This document shows positions 8,171 to 31,851 of a stretch of DNA of 64,000 nt, piece after piece. The translations under genes and the position numbers were made by a program. The first letter of the stretch is position 1; each line of letters begins with the position of its first letter. The DNA comes from a virus (Duplodnaviria; Heunggongvirae; Uroviricota; Caudoviricetes): IMG/VR virus record IMGVR_UViG_2925891887_000001. One strand, given 5' to 3'. A model generated the notes under the pieces. That model made no database searches. It worked only from the letters and a program-made list of their open reading frames with translations, and was not told where the DNA came from.

Positions 8171-8584
8171 ATGGCAAGAGGTATGTATGTCTTATGCGAA
8201 ATTGAAGGTGTGCTGGCAAATACCAGCCATCGTAAATCTGTATCTGACTCGGATGCAGGCCAATTCATTGCCGGTGATGAACTCATTTTCCCCACCAGCC
8301 GTATGTTGCGTGGTTTTGCTCGCTCAGGGGCTGAAGTGGTGCTTATCAGTAGCCGCTCTGAAACTCTTGAAGCGCCCACTAAACGATGGCTGAAAGATTT
8401 TGGTGTTGATTACGACTGGCTTCACCTCGTACCGAATAGCACTAGTTATGAGAAGCATATTAAGCGCACATTAGCGGAGCATAAAGGCGATCTGCTTATC
8501 GCTGCGCTGGTGCACGATCCTCGACTCCGTGCCGCTTTAGCTGACTCTCATCATAGACCGGTCATCTATGAGGTGAGCAAATGA
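8171..8584 (+). CDS. hypothetical protein, possibly HAD-like hydrolase fold
   Basis: ATG overlapping thyA stop; hhhCEIEGVL (HAD motif I-like with Glu for Asp), VVLISS, GDLLIAALVHD; weak. Confidence 0.3.
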   Translation: MARGMYVLCEIEGVLANTSHRKSVSDSDAGQFIAGDELIFPTSRMLRGFARSGAEVVLISSRSETLEAPTKRWLKDFGVDYDWLHLVPNSTSYEKHIKRTLAEHKGDLLIAALVHDPRLRAALADSHHRPVIYEVSK

Positions 8585-9057
8585 AGATGATAGCTGCTGT
8601 TGGCCGTAACTATGAGATCGGCATAGCGAACGAACTGCCCTGGCGTTGTTCTACCGATCTGAAGCTATTTAAGAGACTCACCAAAAACGCCACTGTCGTT
8701 ATGGGGCGTAAAACGATGGAAAGTCTCAAACGCCCTCTTCCAGAGCGTCATAACCTCGTTTTGACGCGCTCTCATGGCTTTGTACCAAATGGATTCTACC
8801 CTGCTGGTGTGGATGATGTGTTGCGATTACCAGAGCCAGTGTGGGTGATTGGCGGGGAACAAATTTACTCGCTATTCATGCCGCATGTTGAAGAGATTTG
8901 GCTCTCCCACATCGGCGTTGATGTGCCAAACGCCGATGCATTCTTCCCGGCAAGCATGATGCGTAATTTAGGCTTTGTGCCTGTTGAAACAGCTTATACC
9001 CAACGAGCCAGCGAGGAAGAGCCTGGCTTTTCGCAGATCGTATACAGAAGGTCGTAA
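8581..9057 (+). CDS. folA: dihydrofolate reductase
   Basis: 158 aa; MIAAVGRNxxIG, LPW, VVMGRKTxESLxRPLPxR, VIGGxQIY motifs as in E. coli FolA. Confidence 0.85.
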   Translation: MKMIAAVGRNYEIGIANELPWRCSTDLKLFKRLTKNATVVMGRKTMESLKRPLPERHNLVLTRSHGFVPNGFYPAGVDDVLRLPEPVWVIGGEQIYSLFMPHVEEIWLSHIGVDVPNADAFFPASMMRNLGFVPVETAYTQRASEEEPGFSQIVYRRS

Positions 9058-13492: not shown

Positions 13493-14083
13493 ATGACGAC
13501 GAAGACACCAGCCCGATCGCAAGCAAAAACTCGCAAAAAAGCCAAAAACAAAAATTCCCCCCGCACCAATCCCACAACGCCTGTCGTAGAGTTCAATCCC
13601 CAGCTTAAAACCGTGAAAATCTTTAGTGATGGCTCTTGCCTTAAAAATCCGGGTGGCCCGGGCGGTTACGGTATCGTTCTCCAGTATCGTGGTGAGGAAC
13701 GCGAGTTCTCAGATGGTTTTCATAGCACCACCAATAACCGCATGGAGATGATGGGGGCACTTATCGGGCTGGAGCGTTTGAAATATCCATGCAACGTTAT
13801 TTTGCACTCTGATAGCCAGTATCTGAAAAACGGCATGACACAGTGGATGAAATGGTGGAAACGCAATGGATGGATGACTTCTGACAAAAAACCGGTAAAG
13901 AATGTTGATCTGTGGAAGCGTCTGGATGAGGCCGCAAGTCGACATAATGTTCGCTGGAAGTGGGTTAAAGGTCACGCCGGGCATCGTGAAAATGAAATAT
14001 GTGATCGACTCGCGAAGATCGCAGCTTTTTCAGCAGCAGATATGCCTCACAAGAAAGATATTGGTTTTGTTTATAATAAATAG
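13493..14083 (+). CDS. rnhA: ribonuclease HI with basic N-terminal extension
   Basis: [41 protein letters not shown], [12 protein letters not shown] colinear with E. coli RnhA; SD CAGGAG. Confidence 0.85.
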
Positions 14084-19577: not shown

Positions 19578-20678
19578 TCACACTGCGCGGAATGCGATTT
19601 CGCCAGGTATTACTTCACCTTGCCAATACATTTGGGCAGCAACGCGATCTGCGAGGTCACGATAAATAGCCGTAAATTCACTATCTGGACGACTAATAAC
19701 GGTTGGTGTTCCGTTATCCAGATCTTCACGAAGAGAGATATGAAGTGGCATTTGGCCTAACAACTGCGTGTTGTATTTCTCGGCCAGTTTCTGTGCGCCA
19801 CCGGTGCCAAAAATTGGCTCGTGATGACCGCAGTTACTGCAAATATGCACACTCATGTTTTCAACGATACCCAGTACCGGCACTTCGACTTTTTCGAACA
19901 TCACAATGCCTTTCTTCGCATCGATCAGCGCGATGTCTTGCGGCGTAGTTACCACAACCGCACCAGTTACAGGAATGTTCTGCGCCAGCGTCAATTGAAT
20001 ATCACCAGTGCCCGGTGGCATATCGAGAACGAGATAGTCCAGATCAGGCCACAGTGTTTCCTGCAACATCTGCATCAGCGCCTTGCTGGCCATCGGTCCA
20101 CGCCACACCATTGCATTGTCGTCGGTGACCAGATAACCAATAGAGTTGGTTGCCAGGCCATGAGACATGATAGGTGCCATGTGAGTACCGTCCGGTGAGG
20201 TTGGACGTTGGTTTTCCGCGCCCAGCATGGTTGGAATTGATGGACCATAGATATCGGCATCCAAAATACCAACTTTCGCACCTTCAGCAGCCAACGCCAG
20301 TGCCAGGTTTACCGCCGTGGAGGATTTACCCACGCCGCCCTTGCCCGAGCTGACGGCGATAATGTTCTTAACGCCATTAATGCCTGGTTGGTTTTTGACG
20401 CGCTTAAGCGTGGCAATGTTGTACGACAGCTTCCAGTCAATAGCCTTTGCGCCAGTGATACGGAGCAGATCACCACTACATTGCTCTTTCAGGTCTTCAA
20501 AAGGCTTATTCCACACGAAAGGCATGATTAGTTCGACATGCAGTGTGTCATCCATCAACGCAACATGGTGTAACGCTTTAAGCGTAGTCAGGTTGTGTTT
20601 CAGGGTTGGGTGCTGAAAATTAGCCAGCGTACCGGCTACCATTGCTCTCAGGGCATCCGGCGATTTGGACTCGCTCAT
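19578..20678 (-). CDS. apbC: Fe-S cluster carrier ATPase Mrp/ApbC (E. coli chromosomal gene)
   Basis: 366-aa ORF with deviant Walker [12 protein letters not shown], CxxC pair (ICSNCGHH) and near-identity to E. coli Mrp as I recall it. Confidence 0.9.
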
Positions 20679-20835
20679 CCCGTCTCCTTTATTTTAATTT
20701 GCGCAATTGTCGCCTTGTAGTGTACTCCAGCTACGACATTTAATCATTTATGAGAAATGCTGTTATCACATGGCAGACATAAGGCCATTTTGTTACTATC
20801 AAGCCCCTTTTCACTACAAAGAAGTAATGCCTACT

Positions 20836-22869
20836 ATGACCCAAGTCGCGAAGAAAATTCTGGTGACGTGCGCGCTGCCGTACGCTAACGGCTCAATCCA
20901 CCTCGGCCATATGCTGGAGCACATCCAGGCTGATGTCTGGGTTCGTTACCAGCGAATGCGCGGCCACGAGGTTAATTTCATCTGTGCCGACGATGCCCAC
21001 GGTACGCCGATCATGCTGAAAGCACAGCAGCTTGGTATCACACCGGAGCAGATGATTGGCGAAATGAGTCAGGAACACCAGACTGATTTCGCAGGCTTTA
21101 ACATCAGCTATGACAACTATCACTCGACGCACAGCGAAGAGAACCGTCAGTTGTCTGAGCTTATCTATACTCGCCTGAAAGAGAACGGTTTTATTAAAAA
21201 CCGTACTATCTCTCAGTTGTACGACCCGGAAAAAGGCATGTTCCTGCCGGATCGTTTTGTGAAAGGCACCTGCCCGAAATGTAAATCCCCGGATCAATAC
21301 GGCGATAACTGCGAAGTCTGCGGCGCGACCTACAGCCCGACTGAATTGATCGAGCCGAAATCGGTGGTTTCTGGTGCTACCCCGGTAATGCGTGATTCTG
21401 AACACTTCTTCTTTGATCTGCCCTCTTTCAGCGAAATGTTGCAGGCATGGACCCGCAGCGGTGCGTTGCAGGAGCAGGTGGCAAATAAAATGCAGGAGTG
21501 GTTTGAATCCGGCCTGCAACAGTGGGATATCTCCCGCGACGCGCCATACTTTGGTTTTGAAATTCCGAACGCGCCGGGCAAATATTTCTACGTCTGGCTG
21601 GACGCACCGATTGGCTACATGGGTTCTTTCAAGAATCTGTGCGACAAGCGCGGCGACAGCGTAAGCTTCGATGAATACTGGAAGAAAGACTCCACCGCCG
21701 AGCTGTACCACTTCATCGGTAAAGATATCGTTTACTTCCACAGCCTGTTCTGGCCTGCCATGCTGGAAGGCAGCAACTTCCGCAAGCCGACCAACCTGTT
21801 TGTTCATGGCTATGTGACGGTGAACGGCGCGAAGATGTCCAAGTCTCGCGGCACCTTTATTAAAGCCAGCACCTGGCTGAATCATTTTGACGCTGACAGC
21901 CTGCGTTACTACTACACTGCGAAACTCTCTTCGCGCATTGATGATATCGATCTCAACCTGGAGGATTTCGTTCAGCGCGTGAATGCCGATATCGTGAACA
22001 AAGTGGTTAACCTGGCGTCCCGTAACGCTGGCTTTATCAATAAGCGTTTTGACGGTGTGCTGGCAAGCGAGCTGGCTGACCCGCAGTTGTACAAAACCTT
22101 CACTGATGCCGCTGAAGTGATTGGTGAAGCGTGGGAAAGCCGCGAATTTGGTAAAGCTATCCGTGAAATCATGGCACTGGCTGACCTGGCTAACCGCTAT
22201 GTCGACGAGCAGGCTCCTTGGGTAGTCGCAAAACAGGAAGGTCGCGATGCTGACCTGCAGGCGATTTGCTCAATGGGCATCAACCTGTTCCGCGTGCTGA
22301 TGACTTACCTGAAACCGGTACTGCCGAAACTGACAGAACGTGCGGAAGCATTCCTGAATACGGAACTGACCTGGGATGGCATCCAGCAACCGCTGCTGGG
22401 CCATAAAGTGAATCCGTTCAAAGCACTGTATAACCGTATCGACATGAAACAGGTGGAAGCATTGGTGGAAGCGTCTAAAGAAGAAGTGAAAGCTACTGCC
22501 GCGCCAGTTACTGGCCCGCTGGCAGACGACCCGATTCAGGAAACCATCACCTTTGACGACTTTGCCAAAGTTGACCTGCGCGTGGCACTGATCGAAAACG
22601 CAGAGTTTGTTGAAGGTTCTGACAAACTGCTGCGCCTGACGCTGGATCTCGGCGGTGAAAAACGCAATGTCTTCTCAGGCATCCGTTCTGCTTATCCAGA
22701 CCCACAGGCACTGATTGGTCGTCACACCATTATGGTGGCTAACCTGGCTCCGCGTAAGATGCGCTTCGGCATCTCCGAAGGTATGGTGATGGCTGCTGGC
22801 CCCGGCGGGAAAGATATCTTCCTGTTAAGCCCGGATGCTGGTGCTAAACCTGGCCACCAGGTTAAGTAA
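20836..22869 (+). CDS. metG: methionyl-tRNA synthetase (E. coli chromosomal gene)
   Basis: 677 aa from [26 protein letters not shown]; HIGH-type motif, KMSKS, zinc knuckle CPKC...CEVCG; essentially identical to E. coli MetG. Confidence 0.95.
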
Positions 22870-24691: not shown

Positions 24692-24829
24692 GTGTAATTA
24701 GCTTAATCAATCAGTTGATAATGGCGGTCACAATTTGATTCTTTTCTATAAGAATCCGTTGATCGCCACTACTCTTCTTCCATACCTGCAATCACACCTT
24801 TAAATATCAATAGGTTAACGTTGTTTATA

Positions 24830-25675
24830 CCAATAAGAAAACAACTAAATAACAGATCAACGAAACATCAACGCTTTCACCCGATTTGGTCTAAAAAATT
24901 GACGTTTTCACACATCACTTCTTATACCCGTAATTCTACGCAGCAGATAGCGCTACAGCGTCCAAATTTCACCACAGACGACTCAACACACTACCAACAA
25001 AAACACACGCTCAAAATCGCTCCCGTTGCGTTACACAACCATATAAACAACTTATTTTCAGGTATAACAAAACAACTAAATAACACACATGCCATTACCC
25101 AAAACAACCAACCTCTTTATGGCAGGCTACCGAAAAGACCCACCTCTTCTCCCCAGGCTACCGGACAACCAACCTAACTTTCACAGGCAATCCGAAAACA
25201 TTCATACGCGCGATACCCACGACACGCCATTACCCAAACAGCGAAGAAACACCAGAATCACTGAAAACCCAACGAAGCCTGTTACCGCAAGGATTCTCTC
25301 AATCCCAAAAGACACGAAACAGAACAATCACGGGAAACGCCATTACCCAATACACGAATAACTACAAAAGCCTTTCACACACTCCAGACAAACAACTCAA
25401 ACACAATAACGAAAGGAATCGCCCACCTGCCATTACTCCATACACGGAGAAGAACAATCACCAAAACGACGAGAACACCCCATAGAAGAACCACCGCAAA
25501 ACGAACGAAACCACATACACCGACAGAGAGAACAACACACCCAATTCACCAACAGAAATAGTCGCCGTATAGAACGTTCTGGAAGGAGTGAGCATTAACG
25601 CCTATAGAGAGGTTGAGACAGATAAAACACAACATGTATAGCGAAGAAGCCAGGTATGTATAAGTGGGGAGGGAA
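24830..25675 (+). ncRNA. candidate long G-depleted (A/C-rich) non-coding transcript
   Basis: About 12% G over about 730 bp; begins at a half motif-A promoter-like element; four spaced GCCATTACCC copies; ends at terminator 25676-25697; only low-complexity chance ORFs. Confidence 0.3.
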
Positions 25676-25697
25676 GGAGGGGTGTCGCCTCCTTTTT
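25676..25697 (+). terminator. intrinsic terminator
   Basis: ggagg...cctcc stem followed by TTTTT. Confidence 0.5.
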
Positions 25698-25744
25698 CGT
25701 ATTTATTCAACTCCTGATTTTATCCCCCGTAACACCCCTACGGT

Positions 25745-25900
25745 CAGCCTTCGGTCCATACAGGGAAAAGGTTGCATCCCGCTACAGAAACGGCTGGGTT
25801 GCCTTCGGGGAACGGCTGGAGGTTTTCAGGGAAACGGTCGAGTTGCCTGTGTGGATTTCGGGAAAAGGCTCGATGCCGGTTCAGGAACGGTGGCGTACCG
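25745..25900. repeat. array of at least 6 degenerate 22-24-bp repeats with core (C/T)AGGGAAAcGG
   Basis: cagggaaaaggttgc, cagaaacggctggg, cggggaacggctgg, cagggaaacggtcg, cgggaaaaggctcg, caggaacggtggcg. Confidence 0.6.
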
Positions 25901-26271
25901 GTATAGCGAGAGGGAGAGTTGCGGCTACCCACCTGTAATGTGCGGGAAGAAGAGAGGCGCTCACGTAGGCGGACTTGCTTACCGCTGGATTCCCTCTGAA
26001 TGCCCAGCTACAGCGTAATTGTGCCAGACAGCCAGCGGGTCACAATCGATTTCAGTAGGTTTTTGGGGAGAGGATTACTCTGCCACCAGCCACTTTCGGC
26101 CACTAAATCAGAATAATGTAAAAAGTGCACTCGGTACTGAACCTGAAAACTCACTGCCAAAACCACATTCACCGGAATAAAATCCTTTTTCGCCTGTGCG
26201 TTATTGCGATAATAACACCAACAAGTAAACAACATGTTTAGACGTTATATAAACGAAGTGAGGATGAAGAG

Positions 26272-26490
26272 ATGATTAAGATGCCTGTGACGGTTGAGGT
26301 GTGGGGCGTGGATTCCCTGGCTGAGTGTCTGGATGCAGTGGGGCCGGAGTTGTACCGCAAGTTGTGGTCGTTCGTCCCGGCAGAAGGGGAACCGCCCAAG
26401 GGGAAGGATATCTGGCACCTGCTGAGTGAAGATGAAAAGCGGGAGCTGGTGGACGCGGTACACAGCGAGTTCCCGGGCGACGAAGATTAA
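26272..26490 (+). CDS. hypothetical small acidic protein (72 aa)
   Basis: SD GAGGATGAAGAG then ATG; terminator immediately downstream. Confidence 0.45.
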   Translation: MIKMPVTVEVWGVDSLAECLDAVGPELYRKLWSFVPAEGEPPKGKDIWHLLSEDEKRELVDAVHSEFPGDED

Positions 26491-26497
26491 GAGTGAG

Positions 26498-26520
26498 GCC
26501 ACCAGCACGGTGGCTTTTGT
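26498..26520 (+). terminator. intrinsic terminator
   Basis: gccaccagcacggtggc followed by TTTTGT. Confidence 0.55.
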
Positions 26521-26628
26521 CGCTATTAACCTCCGGGCAGCGCAACACCGTAACGATATACTTTGTGGCCGTTTTCTTACTGGTATTGTTTACGCAATTT
26601 AGAAAACAACATGTTTAAGGATTGCTTT

Positions 26629-26958
26629 ATGTTTACAAATATCGACATCAACCAAATCAAGAAATTAACTCAAAAAGAGTTTGATCAGTTTTATGAGTTA
26701 GAAGGTTGGTCTTCCACTCTGATCAATTCAAGATGGGTGCTGGAGCTGATGACTCGTGATGACGCACCTGCTTTGATGATTTGCGACATGGGTGAAGATG
26801 CTGACTTTATGGATATGAGCGAATTTTGTGTGGACACATACAACCGCAGCCAGAAGTACTACTTCACATGCGATAGCGAAAATGACGTGATTTCTAAGGT
26901 CTATCTTCACCTCGTCCAGCATTGGGACGTTCAGGAGTTTCTTGAAGTATTCGAGTAA
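26629..26958 (+). CDS. hypothetical protein (about 109 aa)
   Basis: ATG with AAGGA 9 nt upstream; alternative start 26611. Confidence 0.45.
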   Translation: MFTNIDINQIKKLTQKEFDQFYELEGWSSTLINSRWVLELMTRDDAPALMICDMGEDADFMDMSEFCVDTYNRSQKYYFTCDSENDVISKVYLHLVQHWDVQEFLEVFE

Positions 26959-27111
26959 CCCCAACCAAAGCCAGCATTGCTGGCTTAATTTCTCTATAGA
27001 CGCAGGGAAGAACCTGCATATCGCTCATGCGCCTGATCAATATGCTTTGTAGCCGTTTTCTTACTGGTATTATTTACGCCATTGAGAAAACAAGTTGTTT
27101 ACGGAGTTGTA

Positions 27112-27423
27112 ATGAAAAAATCATTGGTTCTTGGTCTGGACAAAGACCAGAAGAGAAAAGAGAAGCCTGCGCTGGTTGCTCAATTAACTTTGCTGGACAT
27201 CGTTGCCAATGGGACCTCTATTCGTCTGTTCCGTGAAACAGCGGTGTCTTTCGATAAAAACACCTTTACTCGTTATGTAATGAATGTTCGTCGCCAGCGT
27301 GGAAAAGGCTGGGTGGCATTTCAAAGAATGTGGCCGGAACATCAGCTCGAACTGGCTTTGATGGAAGTTAACCGCGTGGCCCAGCAAGAGATTCAGAGAG
27401 CATCAGTGATGGCAATAGCCTGA
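27112..27423 (+). CDS. hypothetical protein (103 aa)
   Basis: SD ACGGAG; motif A at 27085-27100. Confidence 0.45.
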   Translation: MKKSLVLGLDKDQKRKEKPALVAQLTLLDIVANGTSIRLFRETAVSFDKNTFTRYVMNVRRQRGKGWVAFQRMWPEHQLELALMEVNRVAQQEIQRASVMAIA

Positions 27424-27458
27424 TAATGTGCAAGTGGCAATTAGTCGACAGTACGACA

Positions 27459-27486
27459 GCCCCGCCATCCTTACGGGGCTTTTTTG
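27459..27486 (+). terminator. intrinsic terminator
   Basis: gccccgccatccttacggggc followed by TTTTTTG. Confidence 0.6.
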
Positions 27487-27490
27487 TATT

Positions 27491-27506
27491 GTAAGTACAT
27501 ACTTAC
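27491..27506. promoter_or_regulatory. motif B palindrome GTAAGTACATACTTAC
   Basis: Perfect inverted repeat between terminator and gene 27550. Confidence 0.5.
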
Positions 27507-27549
27507 GATCATAGAATAGAAAAATAACCAATACACTACGGAGAGTGAA

Positions 27550-27945
27550 ATGACCGTTAAACGCGAAAAACTGACAGTTGATGTTTACTATGCCTCTGAA
27601 ACCGCCGAAGGTAAGAATGTGGCAAAAATCACCGTTGTTACGTACAACACCGAAACTGGTGCCGAAGTACAGGCCAGTACGATCGTGCGTAAAGGTGATG
27701 CCTCCGGCGGCGAGTACGCGACTCAATACCAGTCCATTCTCGATGCAACTGACCCGCTGCTGCTGAAAATCGAGAACTACTTCCGCCAGGTTGATGAAGA
27801 GGTGTTTGAAACCATGATGAATATGGTTAACACCGTATTCGCCTCCAGCCTGAATACCAACACTACCTGGATTGGTCAGTACGGCCTGCGCATTACCTCT
27901 GGCATTCCTGCCGACACCTTAATCCCTGAAAGCGTATTCGCTTAA
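27550..27945 (+). CDS. hypothetical protein (131 aa)
   Basis: SD CGGAGAG then ATG. Confidence 0.5.
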   Translation: MTVKREKLTVDVYYASETAEGKNVAKITVVTYNTETGAEVQASTIVRKGDASGGEYATQYQSILDATDPLLLKIENYFRQVDEEVFETMMNMVNTVFASSLNTNTTWIGQYGLRITSGIPADTLIPESVFA

Positions 27946-27953
27946 TCCTCTTT

Positions 27954-27982
27954 AAATGGCGCGTAAACCGCGCCATTTTATT
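27954..27982 (+). terminator. intrinsic terminator
   Basis: aatggcgcgtaaaccgcgccatt followed by TTATT. Confidence 0.55.
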
Positions 27983-28062
27983 AAGCCCGATAACAATTTG
28001 TTTTCTGCCTTATCTGATTTGTGAAAATGATTTCACTGAAGCAAGTTAATAAGGAAACCATC

Positions 28063-28437
28063 ATGGGACTTGATATCTATATCGAGACACAGCCTAAAAA
28101 CGATCTGAATAACGAGGCATCCAGAAAGCAGGTTGCTTACTTCCGTAAGTTCAATGCGCTCGTTGGGTGGATGGAGCGCAACGTAGGTGAAGTCGAAAAT
28201 TGTGAGCTTTTAGAATTAACGATGAATGACATTTGTTTTCTGAAGGCTCATTTGATGCACATAAACGAAAGTAATTGCGAAGAGTACTTGCCTACCCGGG
28301 AAGGTTTTTTCTTCGGCAGTCAGGAGTACGATGAAGGTTACTGGCATGATGTGGGGCAGTTGAAAGAGCTTGTGGAAGATCTGATTAAGAACCACGACTT
28401 TCACAATAACAGACTGACCTTCTGCGCCTGGTGGTAA
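28063..28437 (+). CDS. hypothetical protein (124 aa)
   Basis: ATG after SD AAGGAAACC; motif A at 27990-28004. Confidence 0.45.
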   Translation: MGLDIYIETQPKNDLNNEASRKQVAYFRKFNALVGWMERNVGEVENCELLELTMNDICFLKAHLMHINESNCEEYLPTREGFFFGSQEYDEGYWHDVGQLKELVEDLIKNHDFHNNRLTFCAWW

Positions 28438-28439
28438 AT

Positions 28440-28583
28440 ATGGGCGATTTCAAGAAACGCCTGAAGGAAAGAGCCGAGATGGTCAGAAAGCAAAACGCCT
28501 CTTCTGTCATCAGATACGCAAGGCAGTTTAGTCGCAACAACAAATCAGTTGAGGAAAAGATCCTTAGCGTAATCGTGCGATAA
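28440..28583 (+). CDS. small basic protein (about 47 aa)
   Basis: ATG 3 nt after upstream stop; below ORF-track cutoff. Confidence 0.25.
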   Translation: MGDFKKRLKERAEMVRKQNASSVIRYARQFSRNNKSVEEKILSVIVR

Positions 28584-28609
28584 TTATTAAGGCCATCAGC
28601 ATTGGTGGC

Positions 28610-28725
28610 CTTAAATGACCATCTTGTTTCCCGCAGGCTAAAAACACCAACCTCTTACCTCCAGGCAACCGACAAACCCACCTGTTCCCGTCCGGCTACC
28701 GCAACTTTCCACTTTGACGCCTTAT
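28610..28725. repeat. second A/C-rich G-poor segment (related to 24830-25560)
   Basis: caggctaaaaacaccaacctcttacctccaggcaaccgacaaacccacctgttcccgtccggctaccg parallels caggctaccgaaaagacccacctcttctccccaggctaccggacaacc near 25.12 kb. Confidence 0.5.
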
Positions 28726-28751
28726 TCGTACAACGATAATTAACACCAACA

Positions 28752-28766
28752 AGAAAACAATTTGTT
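28752..28766. promoter_or_regulatory. motif A palindrome AGAAAACAATTTGTT
   Basis: 21 nt upstream of ATG 28788. Confidence 0.5.
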
Positions 28767-28787
28767 ATTTACGATAAGGAATTAATC

Positions 28788-29270
28788 ATGAATTTTATCG
28801 CTACTGTAAACGCACCCGCACATGGCAATATCGCTGTAACGTTCTCTGACATTGAAAAACGAGTACTTGGTGCATGGCGCGACAATGAGACGGTAGAACT
28901 GTCAGCACAAGAAAAATGCATTATTGCACGCGACATCATTGGCAATCGTCGTTACTCGCGGGTATTTGAGAAAGCGTATGTGGTAAATTCTGGATTCGGA
29001 ACGTTCGTCTTTCCGGTGCGCTCCGGGCGATTCTGCCAGTCCAAGCTGATTGAGTTCGCTACGCAGATTTCTTTCTGGATTAAAACTCAATCGTCGTTCA
29101 AATTTTCCGACGATGAAGCAGTATCGCAGGGGATGCGGATCGCCAACAATGCAATTAAATGCAAAAACATTACGTATACCGCTGGCGTTGATACATGGAA
29201 ACTGTTTTGCGCTAACTTTATGCTGAATGTATACGCAAGCAACCGCATCCACATCCTTGATGGCGTGTAA
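28788..29270 (+). CDS. hypothetical protein (160 aa)
   Basis: SD TAAGGA upstream of ATG. Confidence 0.45.
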   Translation: MNFIATVNAPAHGNIAVTFSDIEKRVLGAWRDNETVELSAQEKCIIARDIIGNRRYSRVFEKAYVVNSGFGTFVFPVRSGRFCQSKLIEFATQISFWIKTQSSFKFSDDEAVSQGMRIANNAIKCKNITYTAGVDTWKLFCANFMLNVYASNRIHILDGV

Positions 29271-29318
29271 CTGAGAAGAGGGCCAGAAACGGCCCTTTCT
29301 CTATAGCCACCAGCTGCC

Positions 29319-29479
29319 GCAGGGAAATTTTCAGAAACGGCGAGGAACGTATTCATGAGCCGACGGGGAACGGCCAGGATTTTTTCGGGAAACGGCTGCA
29401 TTTGCCTTTGTGTAGAAAAAACATCGGGAAGCTGGTGGAATCCAACCAGCGGTTGTCGGACAGGTGAGCGGGGAAAATT
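29319..29479. repeat. second array of degenerate GGGAAAcGG-core repeats
   Basis: cagggaaattttcagaaacgg, cgacggggaacggccagg, tttcgggaaacggctgc, catcgggaagctggtgg, gcggggaaaatt. Confidence 0.55.
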
Positions 29480-29805
29480 ATGATGACTTTCGTCACCTGA
29501 GACATCCAGATTTCTTTCGTAGCATAATCACATACGTGATTAAGTGGTGTGATTATGTGAAAAATCACGCGCACATAATACGCGAGCGGATACGGAACAA
29601 AACAAAATGCCGATCCGCGCCGACAAATAAACGCGGATCATAAAGCAAGACTAAAAGCCAATGATTAACTATGCGCTATAACGCGTTTTAAGCGCGTTAA
29701 TGTGTTAAGTAATGGGTATGTACTGGCAAGGATATAAAAGCGCGTCTATGGCGTTATTTTGGCGCTTATTTTTATGTTGTTGGAGTGAGTTAAAGACAAT
29801 AAAAA

Positions 29806-29876
29806 ACGCGCCATCAATGGCGCGTTATTGTGGAAGTATTGGAAACGAAAAAAGCGCCCATAGTGGGCGCTCGATT
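29806..29876. terminator. pair of bidirectional terminator hairpins at convergence of rightward and leftward transcription
   Basis: aacgcgccatcaatggcgcgtt and agcgcccatagtgggcgct, each flanked by A/T runs on both strands. Confidence 0.55.
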
Positions 29877-30107
29877 TTATTTGTGTAAACTGATTTTAAA
29901 TCCCATTTCTACGAACGCTTTTAACATTAAAAATATATCAGCGTCGTTCACGTCTGCTTTTTTTCGCTCCTGGTCGCTCAATAAGTCAATTTTGCGCGTC
30001 GTTTCATCTATAAGCTCGACTACACGCCCAGCGTAACCAGCGATCCCAGCGATGCGATTAACATAATATTCATTATGGACGTTAACGCCAGCGATAAGAA
30101 CAAACAT
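29877..30107 (-). CDS. hypothetical protein (76 aa), AT-rich cassette
   Basis: Leftward ORF, last gene before convergent terminators. Confidence 0.4.
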   Translation of the reverse strand: MFVLIAGVNVHNEYYVNRIAGIAGYAGRVVELIDETTRKIDLLSDQERKKADVNDADIFLMLKAFVEMGFKISLHK

Positions 30108-31326: not shown

Positions 31327-31851
31327 TTAAAATGGAAGGATTCGTTCAACCCAATCGAAGAAAACAAGTATTTTTCTGCCGTCTTCTAACTTAAGAGTGA
31401 CCTGGCAAGCATCAACGCCTCTTGACACCCCTTCTATTTCACGACCGTCTGTCATGTAGACCCTTATAGATTGGTCGTTTTGATAAGCCTTGCGACATAT
31501 CGCAAAAAAGTCACGGCGTGATGGCTGATTGTCAACATAGTCTGGATGTATTGTTAGCCTACCTTTGAACTCGCGAGCAATGTCATCGATTACACCTGAT
31601 TCAATTGTGCTAATGCGCTCAAGTGGGAGTCTTATACGATTTTCTTTATCATATGGAATCGGGCATAAATCTAGCTTATTGCGTGAAGGCATTGTCCCCT
31701 GAACGTACATGCAAAACACCTGACCGTCTTCAAGCGTGACTCTTACAGGAATGTTGTTCTTCCGCCAGAACATAAGTATGTTCTCAGCATGTTCGTAGTC
31801 TCGCGGCCAGACTTCAGCCGGTATGCCGTAGGTGATGTCCAATGTTCTCAT
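31327..31851 (-). CDS. hypothetical protein (174 aa), AT-rich cassette
   Basis: 4-nt overlap with upstream gene (translational coupling). Confidence 0.45.
   Translation of the reverse strand: MRTLDITYGIPAEVWPRDYEHAENILMFWRKNNIPVRVTLEDGQVFCMYVQGTMPSRNKLDLCPIPYDKENRIRLPLERISTIESGVIDDIAREFKGRLTIHPDYVDNQPSRRDFFAICRKAYQNDQSIRVYMTDGREIEGVSRGVDACQVTLKLEDGRKILVFFDWVERILPF

What the first reader, a model, noticed from the sequence alone, without database searches (positions are those of the whole stretch)
28610..29479. Second, shorter copy of the A/C-rich plus GGGAAAcGG-repeat composite element flanking gene 28788-29270
An A/C-rich stretch at 28610-28725 shares motifs with the 25.1-kb region, and a second repeat array at 29319-29479 shares units with the 25.8-kb array (tttcgggaaacggct occurs in both). 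The two composite elements bracket a block of seven small rightward genes (26272-29270). Duplication of a complex non-coding element at both ends of a gene block suggests a common regulator, recombination-mediated module exchange, or a bipartite origin.
Basis: seen in the sequence. Interest (0 to 1): 0.6.

Follow-up and report, generated by a model that had tools for sequence, protein, structure and literature searches.

The report
Duplicated non-coding control module in phage-plasmids
Two related stretches of non-coding DNA, each an A/C-rich repeat block followed by an evenly spaced array of GGGAAACGG-like sites, are real, strongly conserved in hundreds of SSU5/pHCM2-type phage-plasmids of gut bacteria, and look like undescribed control sites of the phage's early or replication programme, though their function is not established.

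Summary
The window is an SSU5/pHCM2-type phage-plasmid of E. coli.

- **The A/C-rich unit.** A 28-31-nt bipartite unit (ACCnACCTCTT-N5-CAGGCTACCG) occurs three times at 25101-25197 and three times at 28613-28705.
- **The G units.** Nine-nt SRGRAAMGG units form arrays at 25763-25890 and 29322-29478.
- **Statistics.** Both similarities exceed all 500 shuffles (z 14 and 11.6). Neither motif occurs elsewhere in the 109-kb plasmid.
- **Conservation.** Both copies are present in about 60 related loci from six genera, including the infectious phage SSU5.
- **Array 1.** Unit spacing is fixed at 22, 22, 22, 31, 22 nt. By my count, spacers diverge about 46% and units about 10%, with no indels. That points to a protein-bound DNA array.
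- **A/C-rich body (25.09-25.56 kb).** It has no conserved ORF, keeps its A/C bias at variable sites, would be exceptionally unstructured as a plus-strand RNA, and is silent in lysogens.
- **The block between the copies** varies in gene content.

My best guess (about 0.3) is a transcription-activated lytic replication origin with an auxiliary second site. Early-gene regulation, an early non-coding RNA, and recombination boundaries remain open. The elements match no known family, and no binding protein was found.

The parts
24704..24770 (+). Conserved left edge of the 1.58-kb non-coding region. It holds an IHF-consensus-like AATCAATCAGTTG, GGCGGTCAC, a 7-bp inverted repeat (GATTCTT..AAGAATC) and CGTTGATCGCC.
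   Evidence: Nearly invariant across 12 diverse representatives. Conservation starts here even where the upstream gene has been replaced, as in Klebsiella locus L005. The IHF-like match is my reading of the sequence and was not tested.
24899..24928 (+). Promoter-like element P1: TTGACG, 18 nt, TATACC, pointing rightwards into the A/C-rich region.
   Evidence: Both hexamers are invariant and the spacer varies across lineages. It is weak by consensus (no T at -7) and the scan tool did not call it. The region downstream has FPKM 0 in LF82 lysogens.
25025..25085 (+). Promoter/operator module P2, homologous to the small-gene promoters. It contains the palindrome AAACAACTTATTT (25045-25057) and a second copy of ATAAsAAAACAACTAAATAACA.
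   Evidence: (families D2, D13).
25101..25197 (+). A/C unit array, copy 1: three bipartite units (ACCnACCTCTT-N5-CAGGCTACCG) with starts 31 and 30 nt apart.
   Evidence: (D1, D4). Conserved in all lineages. Unit number varies from 3 to 4 in some plasmids.
25091..25560 (+). A/C-rich body carrying GCCATTAC-type motifs at 25091, 25226, 25339 and 25429. It is non-coding and strongly strand-biased.
   Evidence: GC skew about -0.4 to -0.5 and AT skew up to +0.6. No conserved ORF. Variable alignment columns are still 67% A+C, with 52 A/C two-state columns against 6 G/T. The plus-strand RNA folds at -0.113 kcal/mol/nt, against -0.292 +/- 0.037 for tiles of the window. No CDS is annotated under the match in the listed rows of 837 PLSDB plasmids, with few exceptions.
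25664..25700 (+). G-rich purine tract followed by a hairpin and a U-rich tail (terminator-like) that ends the A/C-rich unit.
   Evidence: Terminator scan. The alifold consensus hairpin relies on G-U pairs in other lineages, which only work on the plus strand.
25763..25890 (+). G-unit array, copy 1: six SRGRAAMGG units with starts at 25763, 25785, 25807, 25829, 25860 and 25882.
   Evidence: Spacing 22, 22, 22, 31, 22 is identical in 9 of 12 diverse representatives and in phage SSU5. By my count from the sequences, units diverge about 10% and spacers about 46% between the E. coli and Salmonella lineages, with no indels. RNA folding z-score +1.3.
28589..28612 (+). Hairpin ending the preceding 47-aa gene. 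It is followed by TTAAAT, a weak U tract.
   Evidence: Read from the sequence. Conserved with compensatory changes. In many relatives the stem contains a Chi octamer.
28613..28705 (+). A/C unit array, copy 2: three units, of which the middle one is nearly invariant across genera.
   Evidence: Present at a fixed offset before the 160-aa gene in all about 76 loci.
28712..28767 (+). Promoter of the 160-aa gene (TTGACG 28714-28719, GATAAT 28735-28740) with operator palindrome AAACAATTTGTTA (28755-28767).
   Evidence: The -35 and -10 hexamers and the operator are invariant and the spacer varies. Operator statistics.
28788..29270 (+). 160-aa gene enclosed by copy 2; function unknown.
29280..29299 (+). 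Terminator of the 160-aa gene (GGGCC-AGAAAC-GGCCC-TTTC). Its loop and stem contain a CAGAAACGG unit.
   Evidence: Compensatory stem changes among lineages.
29307..29439 (.). 9-bp inverted repeat CCACCAGCT / AGCTGGTGG bracketing the core of array 2. Each arm contains a Chi octamer, in opposite orientations.
   Evidence: Both arms are retained in most lineages, although the distance between them varies.
29322..29478 (+). G-unit array, copy 2: units starting at 29322, 29332, 29342, 29365, 29387, 29426 and 29470. Units 4-5 and the following spacer are collinear with units 3-4 of array 1.
   Evidence: The two central units (GGGAAACGG, 13 nt, GGGAAACGG) are nearly invariant in all lineages.

Best explanation
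The two composites are paralogous, non-coding, cis-acting modules in the early/replication region of an SSU5/pHCM2-type phage-plasmid. Each has two working parts.

(i) A rightward, operator-controlled transcription unit. In copy 1 it is a non-coding stretch of about 0.6-0.75 kb almost free of G and U, with three 30-nt bipartite units and four GCCATTAC motifs. In copy 2 the three units sit just before the 160-aa gene. Both end at a hairpin.

(ii) Immediately after that hairpin, an array of 9-bp SRGRAAMGG sites whose spacing is held at roughly whole numbers of helical turns. This is what a duplex-DNA array bound by an oligomerising protein looks like.

The mechanism I commit to is a transcription-activated origin of lytic replication, with a second auxiliary site. 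In the plasmid-prophage state the repressor sits on the AAACAAnTTGTTT operators and the unit is silent. After induction, transcription runs through the unstructured A/C-rich DNA up to the array. There an unidentified initiator bound to the phased sites would open the DNA or load the phage's own DnaB-like helicase and primase. Copy 2 would act as a second origin or a cis-enhancer, in the manner of P4 ori/crr, SPP1 oriL/oriR or P1 incC/incA.

Shown: the duplication, the conservation, the fixed spacing, the strand bias, the absence of coding, the silence in lysogeny, and dispensability for plasmid maintenance. Inferred: protein binding, transcription of the A/C body, and any role in replication.
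For: Reality and paralogy of the repeats:
- z 14 and 11.6 against shuffles.
- The motifs occur only at these two loci in the whole 109-kb plasmid.

Selection on non-coding sequence:
- Both copies are conserved in E. coli, Salmonella (pHCM2, SSU5), Klebsiella, Enterobacter, Kluyvera and Buttiauxella. Yersinia pMT1 keeps copy 2 only. The enclosed protein is only 67-70% identical across these.

DNA-level array:
- Spacing 22, 22, 22, 31, 22 is unchanged between lineages whose spacers differ by about 46%, with no indel, while units differ by about 10%.
- The arrays fold no better than shuffles as RNA (z +0.2 and +1.3).
- A 22-bp period and five to seven copies are typical of iteron origins (established knowledge of P1, F, R6K, RK2 and lambda ori).

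Single-strand-level constraint on the A/C body:
- The bias persists at variable sites, and A/C exchanges outnumber G/T exchanges 52 to 6.
- Folding energy is -0.113 against -0.292 +/- 0.037 kcal/mol/nt.
- No conserved ORF.
- Conserved promoter-like elements upstream, and a hairpin that needs G-U pairs downstream.

Lytic rather than plasmid role:
- FPKM is 0 over the A/C part in LF82 lysogens.
- The RepA iterons (TATGCTGTCAGCGGT) are a different sequence and lie outside the window, next to repA.
- pMT1 lacks copy 1 yet is a stable plasmid.
- A plasmid with ISEc12 inserted inside copy 1 exists.

Context:
- The element encodes a DnaB-like helicase, a primase, Pol III alpha, a ligase, RNase HI and a UvsW-like helicase, but no recognised lytic initiator or origin.
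Against: - No clear AT-rich unwinding element or DnaA boxes lie next to the arrays; I read the sequence for these but ran no formal scan.
- Cumulative GC skew is monotonic around the whole plasmid, so it gives no origin signal.
- The A/C units are not tightly phased. Their spacing ranges from 26 to 33 nt among lineages.
- A 470-nt G/U-poor stretch is not a known feature of iteron origins.
- Transcription of the A/C body has not been observed. P1 is a poor sigma-70 match.
- Copy 2 is retained in pMT1, which is not known to grow lytically.
Confidence: 0.3

Rival explanations
1. Transcriptional control sites for the early gene block. A phage- or host-encoded regulator would bind the A/C units as upstream activator sites. 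It would bind the G arrays as post-terminator roadblock, insulator or looping sites. The two copies could pair by looping and so co-regulate the block of small early genes.
For: - In copy 2 the A/C boxes occupy about -115 to -49 relative to the inferred start of the 160-aa gene promoter.
- Both G arrays begin 20-65 nt after a terminator-like hairpin.
- Units are conserved with fixed spacing.
- Every gene in the block has its own operator-bearing promoter, so the region is densely regulated.
Against: - In copy 1 the A/C units lie downstream of the promoters and no promoter follows them.
- The distance from the units to the -35 hexamer differs by 7 nt between lineages, which is unfavourable for a face-of-helix activator.
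- This model does not explain the strand bias of 470 nt.
- No regulator was identified.
Confidence: 0.2
2. The functional molecule is RNA. An early, lytic-phase non-coding transcript of about 0.6-0.75 kb, almost free of G and U and therefore unstructured, would carry repeated protein-binding or base-pairing motifs. It could serve as a giant Rho-loading (rut) or attenuator region. Alternatively it could act as a decoy for a host RNA-binding factor or defence nuclease. The GGA-containing G units might act in read-through RNA, in the manner of CsrB.
For: - Compositional constraint at variable sites and extreme lack of predicted structure.
- Conserved promoters, and a hairpin that depends on G-U pairs.
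- About 160 nt (25427-25585) are conserved as a continuous block rather than as islands, and even match SSU5 by megablast.
- C-rich, G-poor, untranslated RNA is the classical Rho substrate (established knowledge).
- Five of six units in array 1 contain GGA.
Against: - No transcript has been observed; FPKM is 0 in lysogens, so a constitutive sponge is excluded in LF82.
- The exact spacing of the G units despite 46% spacer divergence is not expected for a sponge RNA.
- The invariant AA and GG positions lie outside the CsrA motif.
- No Rfam family matches.
- In copy 2 the A/C units lie upstream of the local promoter.
- The enclosed protein is not ToxN-like.
Confidence: 0.2
3. The elements are recombination boundaries. 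Conserved repeats and Chi sites flanking a hyper-variable cargo block would promote homologous exchange of small-gene cassettes between co-resident phage-plasmids. The repeats would have no function beyond that.
For: - The block between the copies has 54 distinct versions and 7 presence/absence patterns, even among near-identical E. coli plasmids.
- Five Chi octamers lie within 26.0-29.5 kb, two of them bracketing array 2 in opposite orientations.
- A/C unit number changes by whole units.
Against: - Recombination anchors need only be similar to each other. They need not preserve 9-bp units, exact spacing and strand composition across genera.
- The two copies are direct repeats only about 60-75% alike over short stretches, which makes them poor substrates.
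- The 55-66-nt promoter repeats at 88-89% identity are better candidates.
- Overall Chi density (16 per 64 kb) is close to the usual E. coli chromosomal density as I recall it, not tested here.
Confidence: 0.1
4. The arrays are plasmid centromeres. They would be bound by the small partner protein of the type Ib-like ParA encoded elsewhere on the plasmid, as with the dispersed centromeres of phage-plasmid N15.
For: - Phased direct repeats are typical of parC/parH-type centromeres (established knowledge).
- A 222-aa ParA/MipZ-type ATPase followed by a 117-aa gene lies outside the window.
- Two separated sites recall the dispersed N15 centromeres (recalled from the literature, not checked here).
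Against: - Type Ib centromeres normally abut their operon.
- pMT1, a stable plasmid, lacks copy 1. pMT1 has its own P1-type ParAB.
- This model does not explain the A/C part or the strand bias.
Confidence: 0.06

Closest known systems
Iteron-type replication origins with a second iteron cluster (P1 incC/incA flanking repA; lambda ori; F, R6K, RK2)
   Same: - Five to seven direct repeats with a period of about 22 bp.
- A second, less regular cluster a few kb away on the other side of a gene.
- Control by transcription reaching the origin.
- Location in a replication and early-gene region.
   Different: - The conserved core is only 9-11 bp, against 17-22 bp for iterons.
- No adjacent initiator gene, DnaA boxes or evident AT-rich unwinding element.
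- The plasmid's real RepA iterons are a different sequence located elsewhere.
- Known iteron origins have no 0.5-kb A/C-only flank.
Two-site phage origins: satellite phage P4 ori and crr, Bacillus phage SPP1 oriL and oriR
   Same: Two separated cis sites, a few kb apart or more, share the same short repeated protein-binding motifs (recalled from the literature, not checked here).
   Different: - In P4 and SPP1 the binding protein (the alpha protein, G38P) is known and the repeats differ in sequence and length.
- Here nothing shows that either site is an origin.
R-loop or transcript-primed origins (T4 oriF/oriG, ColE1 RNA II)
   Same: - A promoter firing towards the site.
- A non-coding transcript of several hundred nt ending in a G-rich tract and hairpin.
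- The element encodes RNase HI and a UvsW-like helicase, the enzymes that process such R-loops in T4 and ColE1 (established knowledge).
   Different: - The transcript body would be C-rich and G-poor, which disfavours R-loops.
- No structure comparable to RNA II is present.
- No experimental data exist.
Centromere repeat arrays (R1 parC, pB171 parC1/parC2, TP228 parH, dispersed N15 sopC sites)
   Same: Short direct repeats on a lattice of about 11 bp, present as two clusters. Phage-plasmids can have centromeres far from the par genes.
   Different: - No par operon is adjacent.
- Copy 1 is dispensable for plasmid inheritance in pMT1.
- There is an additional A/C-rich part.
CsrB/RsmZ-type GGA-repeat sponge RNAs and ToxI-type repeat antitoxin RNAs
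   Same: Tandem short repeats containing GGA in the G arrays. Tandem units of about 30 nt in front of a gene of about 160 aa in the A/C part.
   Different: - No Rfam match.
- GGA is not placed in hairpin loops and the fold is not better than shuffles.
- Spacing is rigid.
- A promoter lies between the A/C repeats and the gene.
- The protein has no ToxN-like fold or PADLOC match.

Membership tests
Iteron-type replication origin | Several direct repeats of one sequence with a period of about two helical turns | tested here: met
   Six units at 22, 22, 22, 31, 22 nt, with the spacing conserved across lineages.
Iteron-type replication origin | A cognate initiator (Rep) gene, usually adjacent, whose product binds the repeats | tested here: not met
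   No Rep-like domain in the neighbouring proteins. The 160-aa protein has no known fold. The plasmid's RepA sits outside the window with its own, different iterons. Binding itself cannot be tested here.
Iteron-type replication origin | An adjacent AT-rich unwinding element and host-factor sites (DnaA, IHF) | tested here: inconclusive
   Only a patch of about 30 bp that is moderately AT-rich (25700-25730), and an IHF-consensus-like match about 1 kb upstream at 24704-24716. I noticed no DnaA box on reading. There was no formal scan and no statistics.
Iteron-type replication origin | Replication starts there | not testable with these tools
   GC skew is monotonic and uninformative. Marker-frequency or 2-D gel data are needed.
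Plasmid centromere (parC/parS-type) | A repeat array next to, or demonstrably served by, a ParA and centromere-binding-protein pair | tested here: not met
   The nearest ParA-like gene, with a 117-aa partner, lies outside the window. The ApbC/Mrp-type ATPase at 19578-20678 is an Fe-S carrier homologue.
Plasmid centromere (parC/parS-type) | Required for stable inheritance | tested here: inconclusive
   pMT1 lacks copy 1 but has its own ParAB. An IS-disrupted copy 1 exists in one plasmid. There is no stability assay.
CsrB/RsmZ-type sponge RNA | Match to the Rfam models; GGA motifs presented in hairpin loops | tested here: not met
   No Rfam hit in 23-31 kb apart from weak terminator look-alikes. 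Array folding z-scores are +0.2 and +1.3.
CsrB/RsmZ-type sponge RNA | Abundant transcript | tested here: not met
   About 6-12 FPKM over hairpin plus array 1, and 0 over the A/C part, in LF82 lysogens. The induced state is not available.
Type III toxin-antitoxin (ToxIN-like) | Promoter, then tandem RNA repeats, then terminator, then a ToxN-family endoribonuclease gene | tested here: not met
Rho-dependent terminator (rut region) | Untranslated, C-rich, G-poor, unstructured RNA of at least about 80 nt | tested here: met
   GC skew about -0.4 to -0.5 across roughly 24.9-25.5 kb, no conserved ORF, and folding at -0.113 kcal/mol/nt. This applies only if the region is transcribed, which is not shown.
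Rho-dependent terminator (rut region) | Rho-dependent 3' ends | not testable with these tools
   This needs transcript mapping with and without bicyclomycin.
Protein-coding gene (as annotated in the Cyrano and PhiR41_1 records) | An open reading frame conserved in frame, with a substitution pattern typical of proteins | tested here: not met
   The frames with the longest ORF differ between relatives. The one frame that is mostly open (minus strand, 25458-25595) has internal stops in two lineages, no conserved start and no ribosome-binding site. By my count from the translations it shows about 26% amino-acid change. PGAP annotates nothing there.

The most novel reading that the evidence does not exclude
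On induction, SSU5-type phage-plasmids make a non-coding RNA of about 0.7 kb that is almost devoid of G and U and therefore cannot fold. Its repeated motifs (three 30-nt units and four to six GCCATTAC boxes) would capture a host factor such as Rho, Hfq or a defence nuclease. The phased G-unit DNA arrays behind each transcription unit would be the loading sites of a new, still unidentified origin-binding or chromatin-like protein. Together they would form a two-layer (RNA plus DNA) control module with no described counterpart.
Probability: 0.12. Interest if true: 0.8.

Novelty: new variant of a known kind. Interest (0 to 1): 0.55.

Why it matters
- **Prevalence.** SSU5/pHCM2-type phage-plasmids are common. 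This region is in 244 of 5426 complete E. coli genomes. Copy 1 is in 837 PLSDB plasmids of Klebsiella, Escherichia, Enterobacter, Salmonella and others.
- **Clinical relevance.** These elements carry resistance genes, here dfrA51.
- **Gap in knowledge.** In the papers I could search, I found no description of their lytic origin, their early regulatory circuit or this 1.5-kb non-coding region.
- **What this provides.** The two modules are among the best conserved non-coding sequences of the family, so they give concrete sites for experiments:
  - deletion of the arrays;
  - marker-frequency mapping after induction;
  - pull-down of the binding protein.
- **Possible payoff.** These could identify the lytic origin or a master early regulator. 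If the A/C-rich segment is transcribed, it would be an unusual natural example of an RNA selected to be structure-free.

Tried and rejected
- **fliC-leader mimic for the FljA-family protein (31327-31851).** A 12-mer of array 2 (TGAGCCGACGGG) is identical to the E. coli fliC 5'UTR. However, whole-leader similarity to the window equals that of shuffles (26 against 25.1 +/- 2.2), and the 12-mer is absent from the Salmonella and Klebsiella lineages. Rejected as chance.
- **RepA iterons.** They are a different sequence at another locus.
- **Hidden small protein on the minus strand of the A/C body.** Rejected.
- **Structured RNA in the arrays.** Rejected by folding z-scores. Only the terminal hairpins are supported.
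- **Rfam.** Nothing relevant.
- **The 160-aa protein as the binder.** Its fold is confidently predicted but matches nothing.
- **The 103-aa core protein.** Marginal AP2/arm-binding-like similarity only; the viral structure library was uninformative.
- **Search for the 22-nt-spaced G-unit pattern in IMG/VR.** It returned only SSU5-type contigs plus unrelated tandem repeats of other phages.
- **Y. pestis sRNAs on pMT1 (sR082, sR083).** They map elsewhere.
- **GC-skew origin mapping.** Monotonic and uninformative.
- **Homology of the two G-rich hairpins.** Weak in pHCM2 and SSU5 (2 of 1000 and 22 of 1000 shuffles reach the score) and absent in the window.
- **Literature searches.** No description of this region was found. 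Yamamoto & Kutsukake 2006 and the 2026 heteroresistance preprint could not be read.
Full report
**What the window is.** The 4.9-kb stretch around the finding is 100% identical to plasmid p22AR0322A of E. coli (NZ_CP195468.1, 109,442 bp). It is 94-98% identical to the phages Cyrano, PhiR41_1 and CMS-2020a. These are SSU5/pHCM2-type phage-plasmids. The same stretch is found, always on plasmids, in 244 of 5426 complete E. coli genomes. The plasmid replicon lies outside the window. It consists of repA flanked by TATGCTGTCAGCGGT iterons.

**Checking the observation.**
- The A/C-rich stretch at 28613-28705 consists of three tandem bipartite units (box ACCnACCTCTT, 5 variable nt, box CAGGCTACCG). They match three units at 25101-25197.
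- The second array holds SRGRAAMGG units starting at 29322, 29332, 29342, 29365, 29387, 29426 and 29470. They match six units starting at 25763, 25785, 25807, 25829, 25860 and 25882.
- Against 500 dinucleotide-preserving shuffles, the local alignment scores are 32 against 11.0 +/- 1.5 for the A/C parts and 25 against 9.6 +/- 1.3 for the G parts. No shuffle reaches either value. Cross comparisons of an A/C part with a G part are at chance.
- The G alignment runs through two units and the following spacer. The arrays are therefore paralogous segments, not merely collections of the same word.
- Neither motif occurs elsewhere in the window or in the remaining 45 kb of the plasmid.

Two details need correcting. 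Copy 2 is not at the end of the block; it encloses the last gene.

**Anatomy of copy 1.** The 1.58 kb between the 409-aa gene (ends 24691) and the first small gene (starts 26272) is non-coding. From left to right it contains:
- a conserved edge block (24704-24770);
- a promoter-like TTGACG-18-TATACC (24899-24928), whose hexamers are invariant while its spacer varies among lineages;
- a second promoter module with the palindrome AAACAACTTATTT (25045-25057), homologous to the promoters of the small genes;
- the three A/C units;
- an A/C-rich body with GCCATTAC-type motifs at 25091, 25226, 25339 and 25429;
- a purine-rich stretch with TATAG motifs;
- a G-rich tract with a hairpin and U-rich tail (25664-25700);
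- after 65 nt, the six G units.

**Anatomy of copy 2.** In order: the hairpin of the preceding gene (28589-28612), the three A/C units, a sigma-70-type promoter with the operator palindrome (28712-28767), the 160-aa gene, its terminator (29280-29299), and after about 20 nt the G units. A 9-bp inverted repeat, CCACCAGCT/AGCTGGTGG, brackets the core of that array.

**Conservation.**
- Searching with the 160-aa protein gave 70 loci. Further records were fetched directly.
- Both copies are present with the same layout in Salmonella pHCM2 and phage SSU5, Klebsiella, Enterobacter, Kluyvera and Buttiauxella.
- Copy 2 sits at a fixed offset around the gene in every locus.
- Copy 1 is found in 837 PLSDB plasmids, with no CDS annotated under the match in nearly all listed rows, and in no Yersinia record.
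- Y. pestis pMT1 keeps copy 2 but has other genes where copy 1 should be.

**The G arrays behave like DNA sites.**
- In 9 of 12 diverse representatives, and in SSU5, the start-to-start spacing of array 1 is exactly 22, 22, 22, 31, 22.
- Counting from the sequences, the E. coli and Salmonella lineages differ at about 34 of 74 spacer positions and about 5 of 54 unit positions. There is no insertion or deletion.
- Selection therefore acts on the 9-bp units and on the distances between them, not on the sequence in between.
- As RNA the arrays fold no better than shuffled sequence (z +0.2 and +1.3 on the plus strand).
- Distances of about two and three helical turns place the units on roughly one face of the duplex. 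That is the pattern of iterons, centromere repeats and other arrays bound by oligomerising proteins. It is an inference; binding was not tested.

**The A/C-rich body behaves like a single-stranded molecule.**
- It has no conserved reading frame.
- Its bias is not confined to conserved motifs. Columns that vary among lineages are still 67% A+C. Columns alternating between A and C number 52 against 6 for G and T. In the unbiased region to the right the figures are 15 and 20.
- The plus-strand RNA would fold at -0.113 kcal/mol per nt. Forty-three tiles of the window give -0.292 +/- 0.037, with none above -0.232. The minus strand is ordinary at -0.25.
- The hairpin at its end needs G-U pairs in other lineages, which work only on the plus strand.
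- Together with the conserved promoter-like elements, this suggests a rightward non-coding transcript of 0.6-0.75 kb. That remains unproven.
- In published RNA-seq of the Cyrano lysogen LF82, the spurious ORF covering the first part of this region (CYRAN_103) has log2(5+FPKM) = 2.32, which is zero reads, in LB. The one covering hairpin and array 1 (CYRAN_104) has about 6-12 FPKM (PMC9928086).
- The region is thus silent in the plasmid-prophage state. That fits the operator in front of it and argues for a role after induction.

**Not needed for plasmid life.** pMT1 lacks copy 1. One otherwise identical E. coli plasmid carries ISEc12 inserted at 25384-25388. The RepA replicon is elsewhere.

**Surroundings.**
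- All seven small genes between and inside the copies are of unknown function.
- Each has its own promoter followed by the palindrome AAACAAnTTGTTT. This occurs at 15 intergenic sites in the window, against 0.42 expected, and at 5 more in the rest of the plasmid. It is evidently the operator of one repressor.
- The block between the copies is variable. There are 54 distinct versions of 2.18-3.78 kb. Seven presence/absence patterns of the six window genes occur. Only the 103-aa and 131-aa genes, and the 160-aa gene, are universal.
- Chi octamers are locally dense.
- The plasmid encodes a DnaB-like helicase, a primase, Pol III alpha, a ligase, RNase HI and a UvsW-like helicase, but no recognised lytic initiator.

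**Candidate binding proteins.**
- A full-length FljA-family protein lies at 31327-31851. The idea that the repeats mimic the fliC leader was tested and rejected.

**Interpretation.**
- Firmly supported: the elements are real, paralogous, selected, non-coding, specific to this phage-plasmid family, silent in lysogeny and dispensable for plasmid maintenance.
- Reasonably inferred (about 0.65): the G arrays are protein-binding DNA sites, and the A/C body acts in a single-stranded form.
- Not established: which process they serve.

I rank a transcription-activated lytic origin with an auxiliary second site first, at about 0.3. The grounds are the iteron-like period, the repressor-controlled transcription directed at each array, the replication-gene context and the lack of any other candidate origin. 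The main arguments against are that there is no initiator, no unwinding element and no skew signal.

The other readings are:
- regulation of the early genes, about 0.2;
- an early unstructured RNA acting as a Rho-loading region or decoy, about 0.2;
- recombination boundaries of the variable block, about 0.1;
- a centromere, about 0.06.

**Comparison with known systems.** The arrays resemble iterons and centromere repeats in period and number. They fail the membership tests that could be run: no adjacent Rep or Par genes, a short core, and no host-factor sites. They are not CsrB-like or ToxI-like. I found no description of this region in the searchable literature. I therefore file it as a new variant of a known kind, namely phased cis-acting repeat arrays coupled to a non-coding early transcription unit. 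It is of moderate interest because of its very wide distribution and its unusual strand composition.

Noticed in passing
window 4762, 14981, 15710, 16424, 19331, 22954, 23005, 25045, 26227, 26604, 27088, 27991, 28755, 39172, 39197; also NZ_CP195468.1 3211, 11644, 17681, 31310, 35077: The 13-bp palindrome AAACAAnTTGTTT lies at 15 intergenic sites in the window, against 0.42 expected by chance, and at 5 more in the rest of the plasmid. It usually sits 10-15 nt after a -10-like hexamer, upstream of early and replication genes. It looks like the operator set of a single prophage repressor, analogous in logic to the dispersed C1 operators of P1.
   Followed up: partly
window 31327-31851 (-): A full-length member of the FljA family (Pfam Flag1_repress, E 3e-80, with a weak Hfq-like tail) is conserved in all relatives. 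FljA is a post-transcriptional repressor of flagellin fliC, so a phage-plasmid copy might switch off host flagellin.
   Followed up: partly
window 29355-29366: The 12-mer TGAGCCGACGGG inside array 2 is identical to part of the E. coli fliC 5' untranslated leader. It occurs only in the E. coli lineage, and whole-leader similarity is at chance, so it is probably coincidence.
   Followed up: yes
window 26083, 26445, 26499, 29307, 29431 (and 11 other sites): The window holds 16 Chi octamers, 5 of them within 26.0-29.5 kb. Pairs in opposite orientation form terminator stems or bracket array 2, and in relatives the hairpin before the A/C units also contains Chi.
   Followed up: partly
window 26272-28583; loci L001-L076: The block of small genes is a cassette region. 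Each gene has its own promoter, operator and terminator, and the promoter regions are 55-66-nt repeats at 88-89% identity. Gene content differs even among near-identical E. coli plasmids.
   Followed up: partly
window 25603, 25637, 25902 (+); complement at 26992 and 29299: A TATAG(A/C)G motif is confined to this region. It occurs three times near array 1, and its complement CTCTATAG follows two terminators directly. No explanation.
   Followed up: no
window 19578-22869, 13493-14083 and 8581-9057; rest of plasmid: The phage-plasmid carries full-length metG (methionyl-tRNA synthetase), apbC (Fe-S carrier), rnhA (RNase HI), dfrA51 (trimethoprim resistance), nrdAB and thyA. It also carries four tRNA genes and a type Ib-like ParA with a 117-aa gene. 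The rnhA and dfrA51 window coordinates are my own conversion from the record positions.
   Followed up: no
window 25384-25388: In plasmid pCR-0543_1 (E. coli strain 205), which is 100% identical over the 4.9-kb query, an ISEc12 element is inserted here with a 5-bp target duplication, inside the A/C-rich body.
   Followed up: yes
window 24821-25177 and 25656-26018: The Cyrano and PhiR41_1 GenBank records annotate hypothetical proteins inside the A/C-rich region and across array 1. These ORFs are not conserved and PGAP does not call them, so they are likely annotation artefacts.
   Followed up: yes
window 29480-29900: The convergent junction after array 2 is a conserved non-coding region of about 400 nt. 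It holds several bidirectional terminator hairpins and inverted repeats (CATAATCACAT / TGATTATGTG). Only weak sub-threshold Rfam hits to sRNA terminators were found.
   Followed up: no
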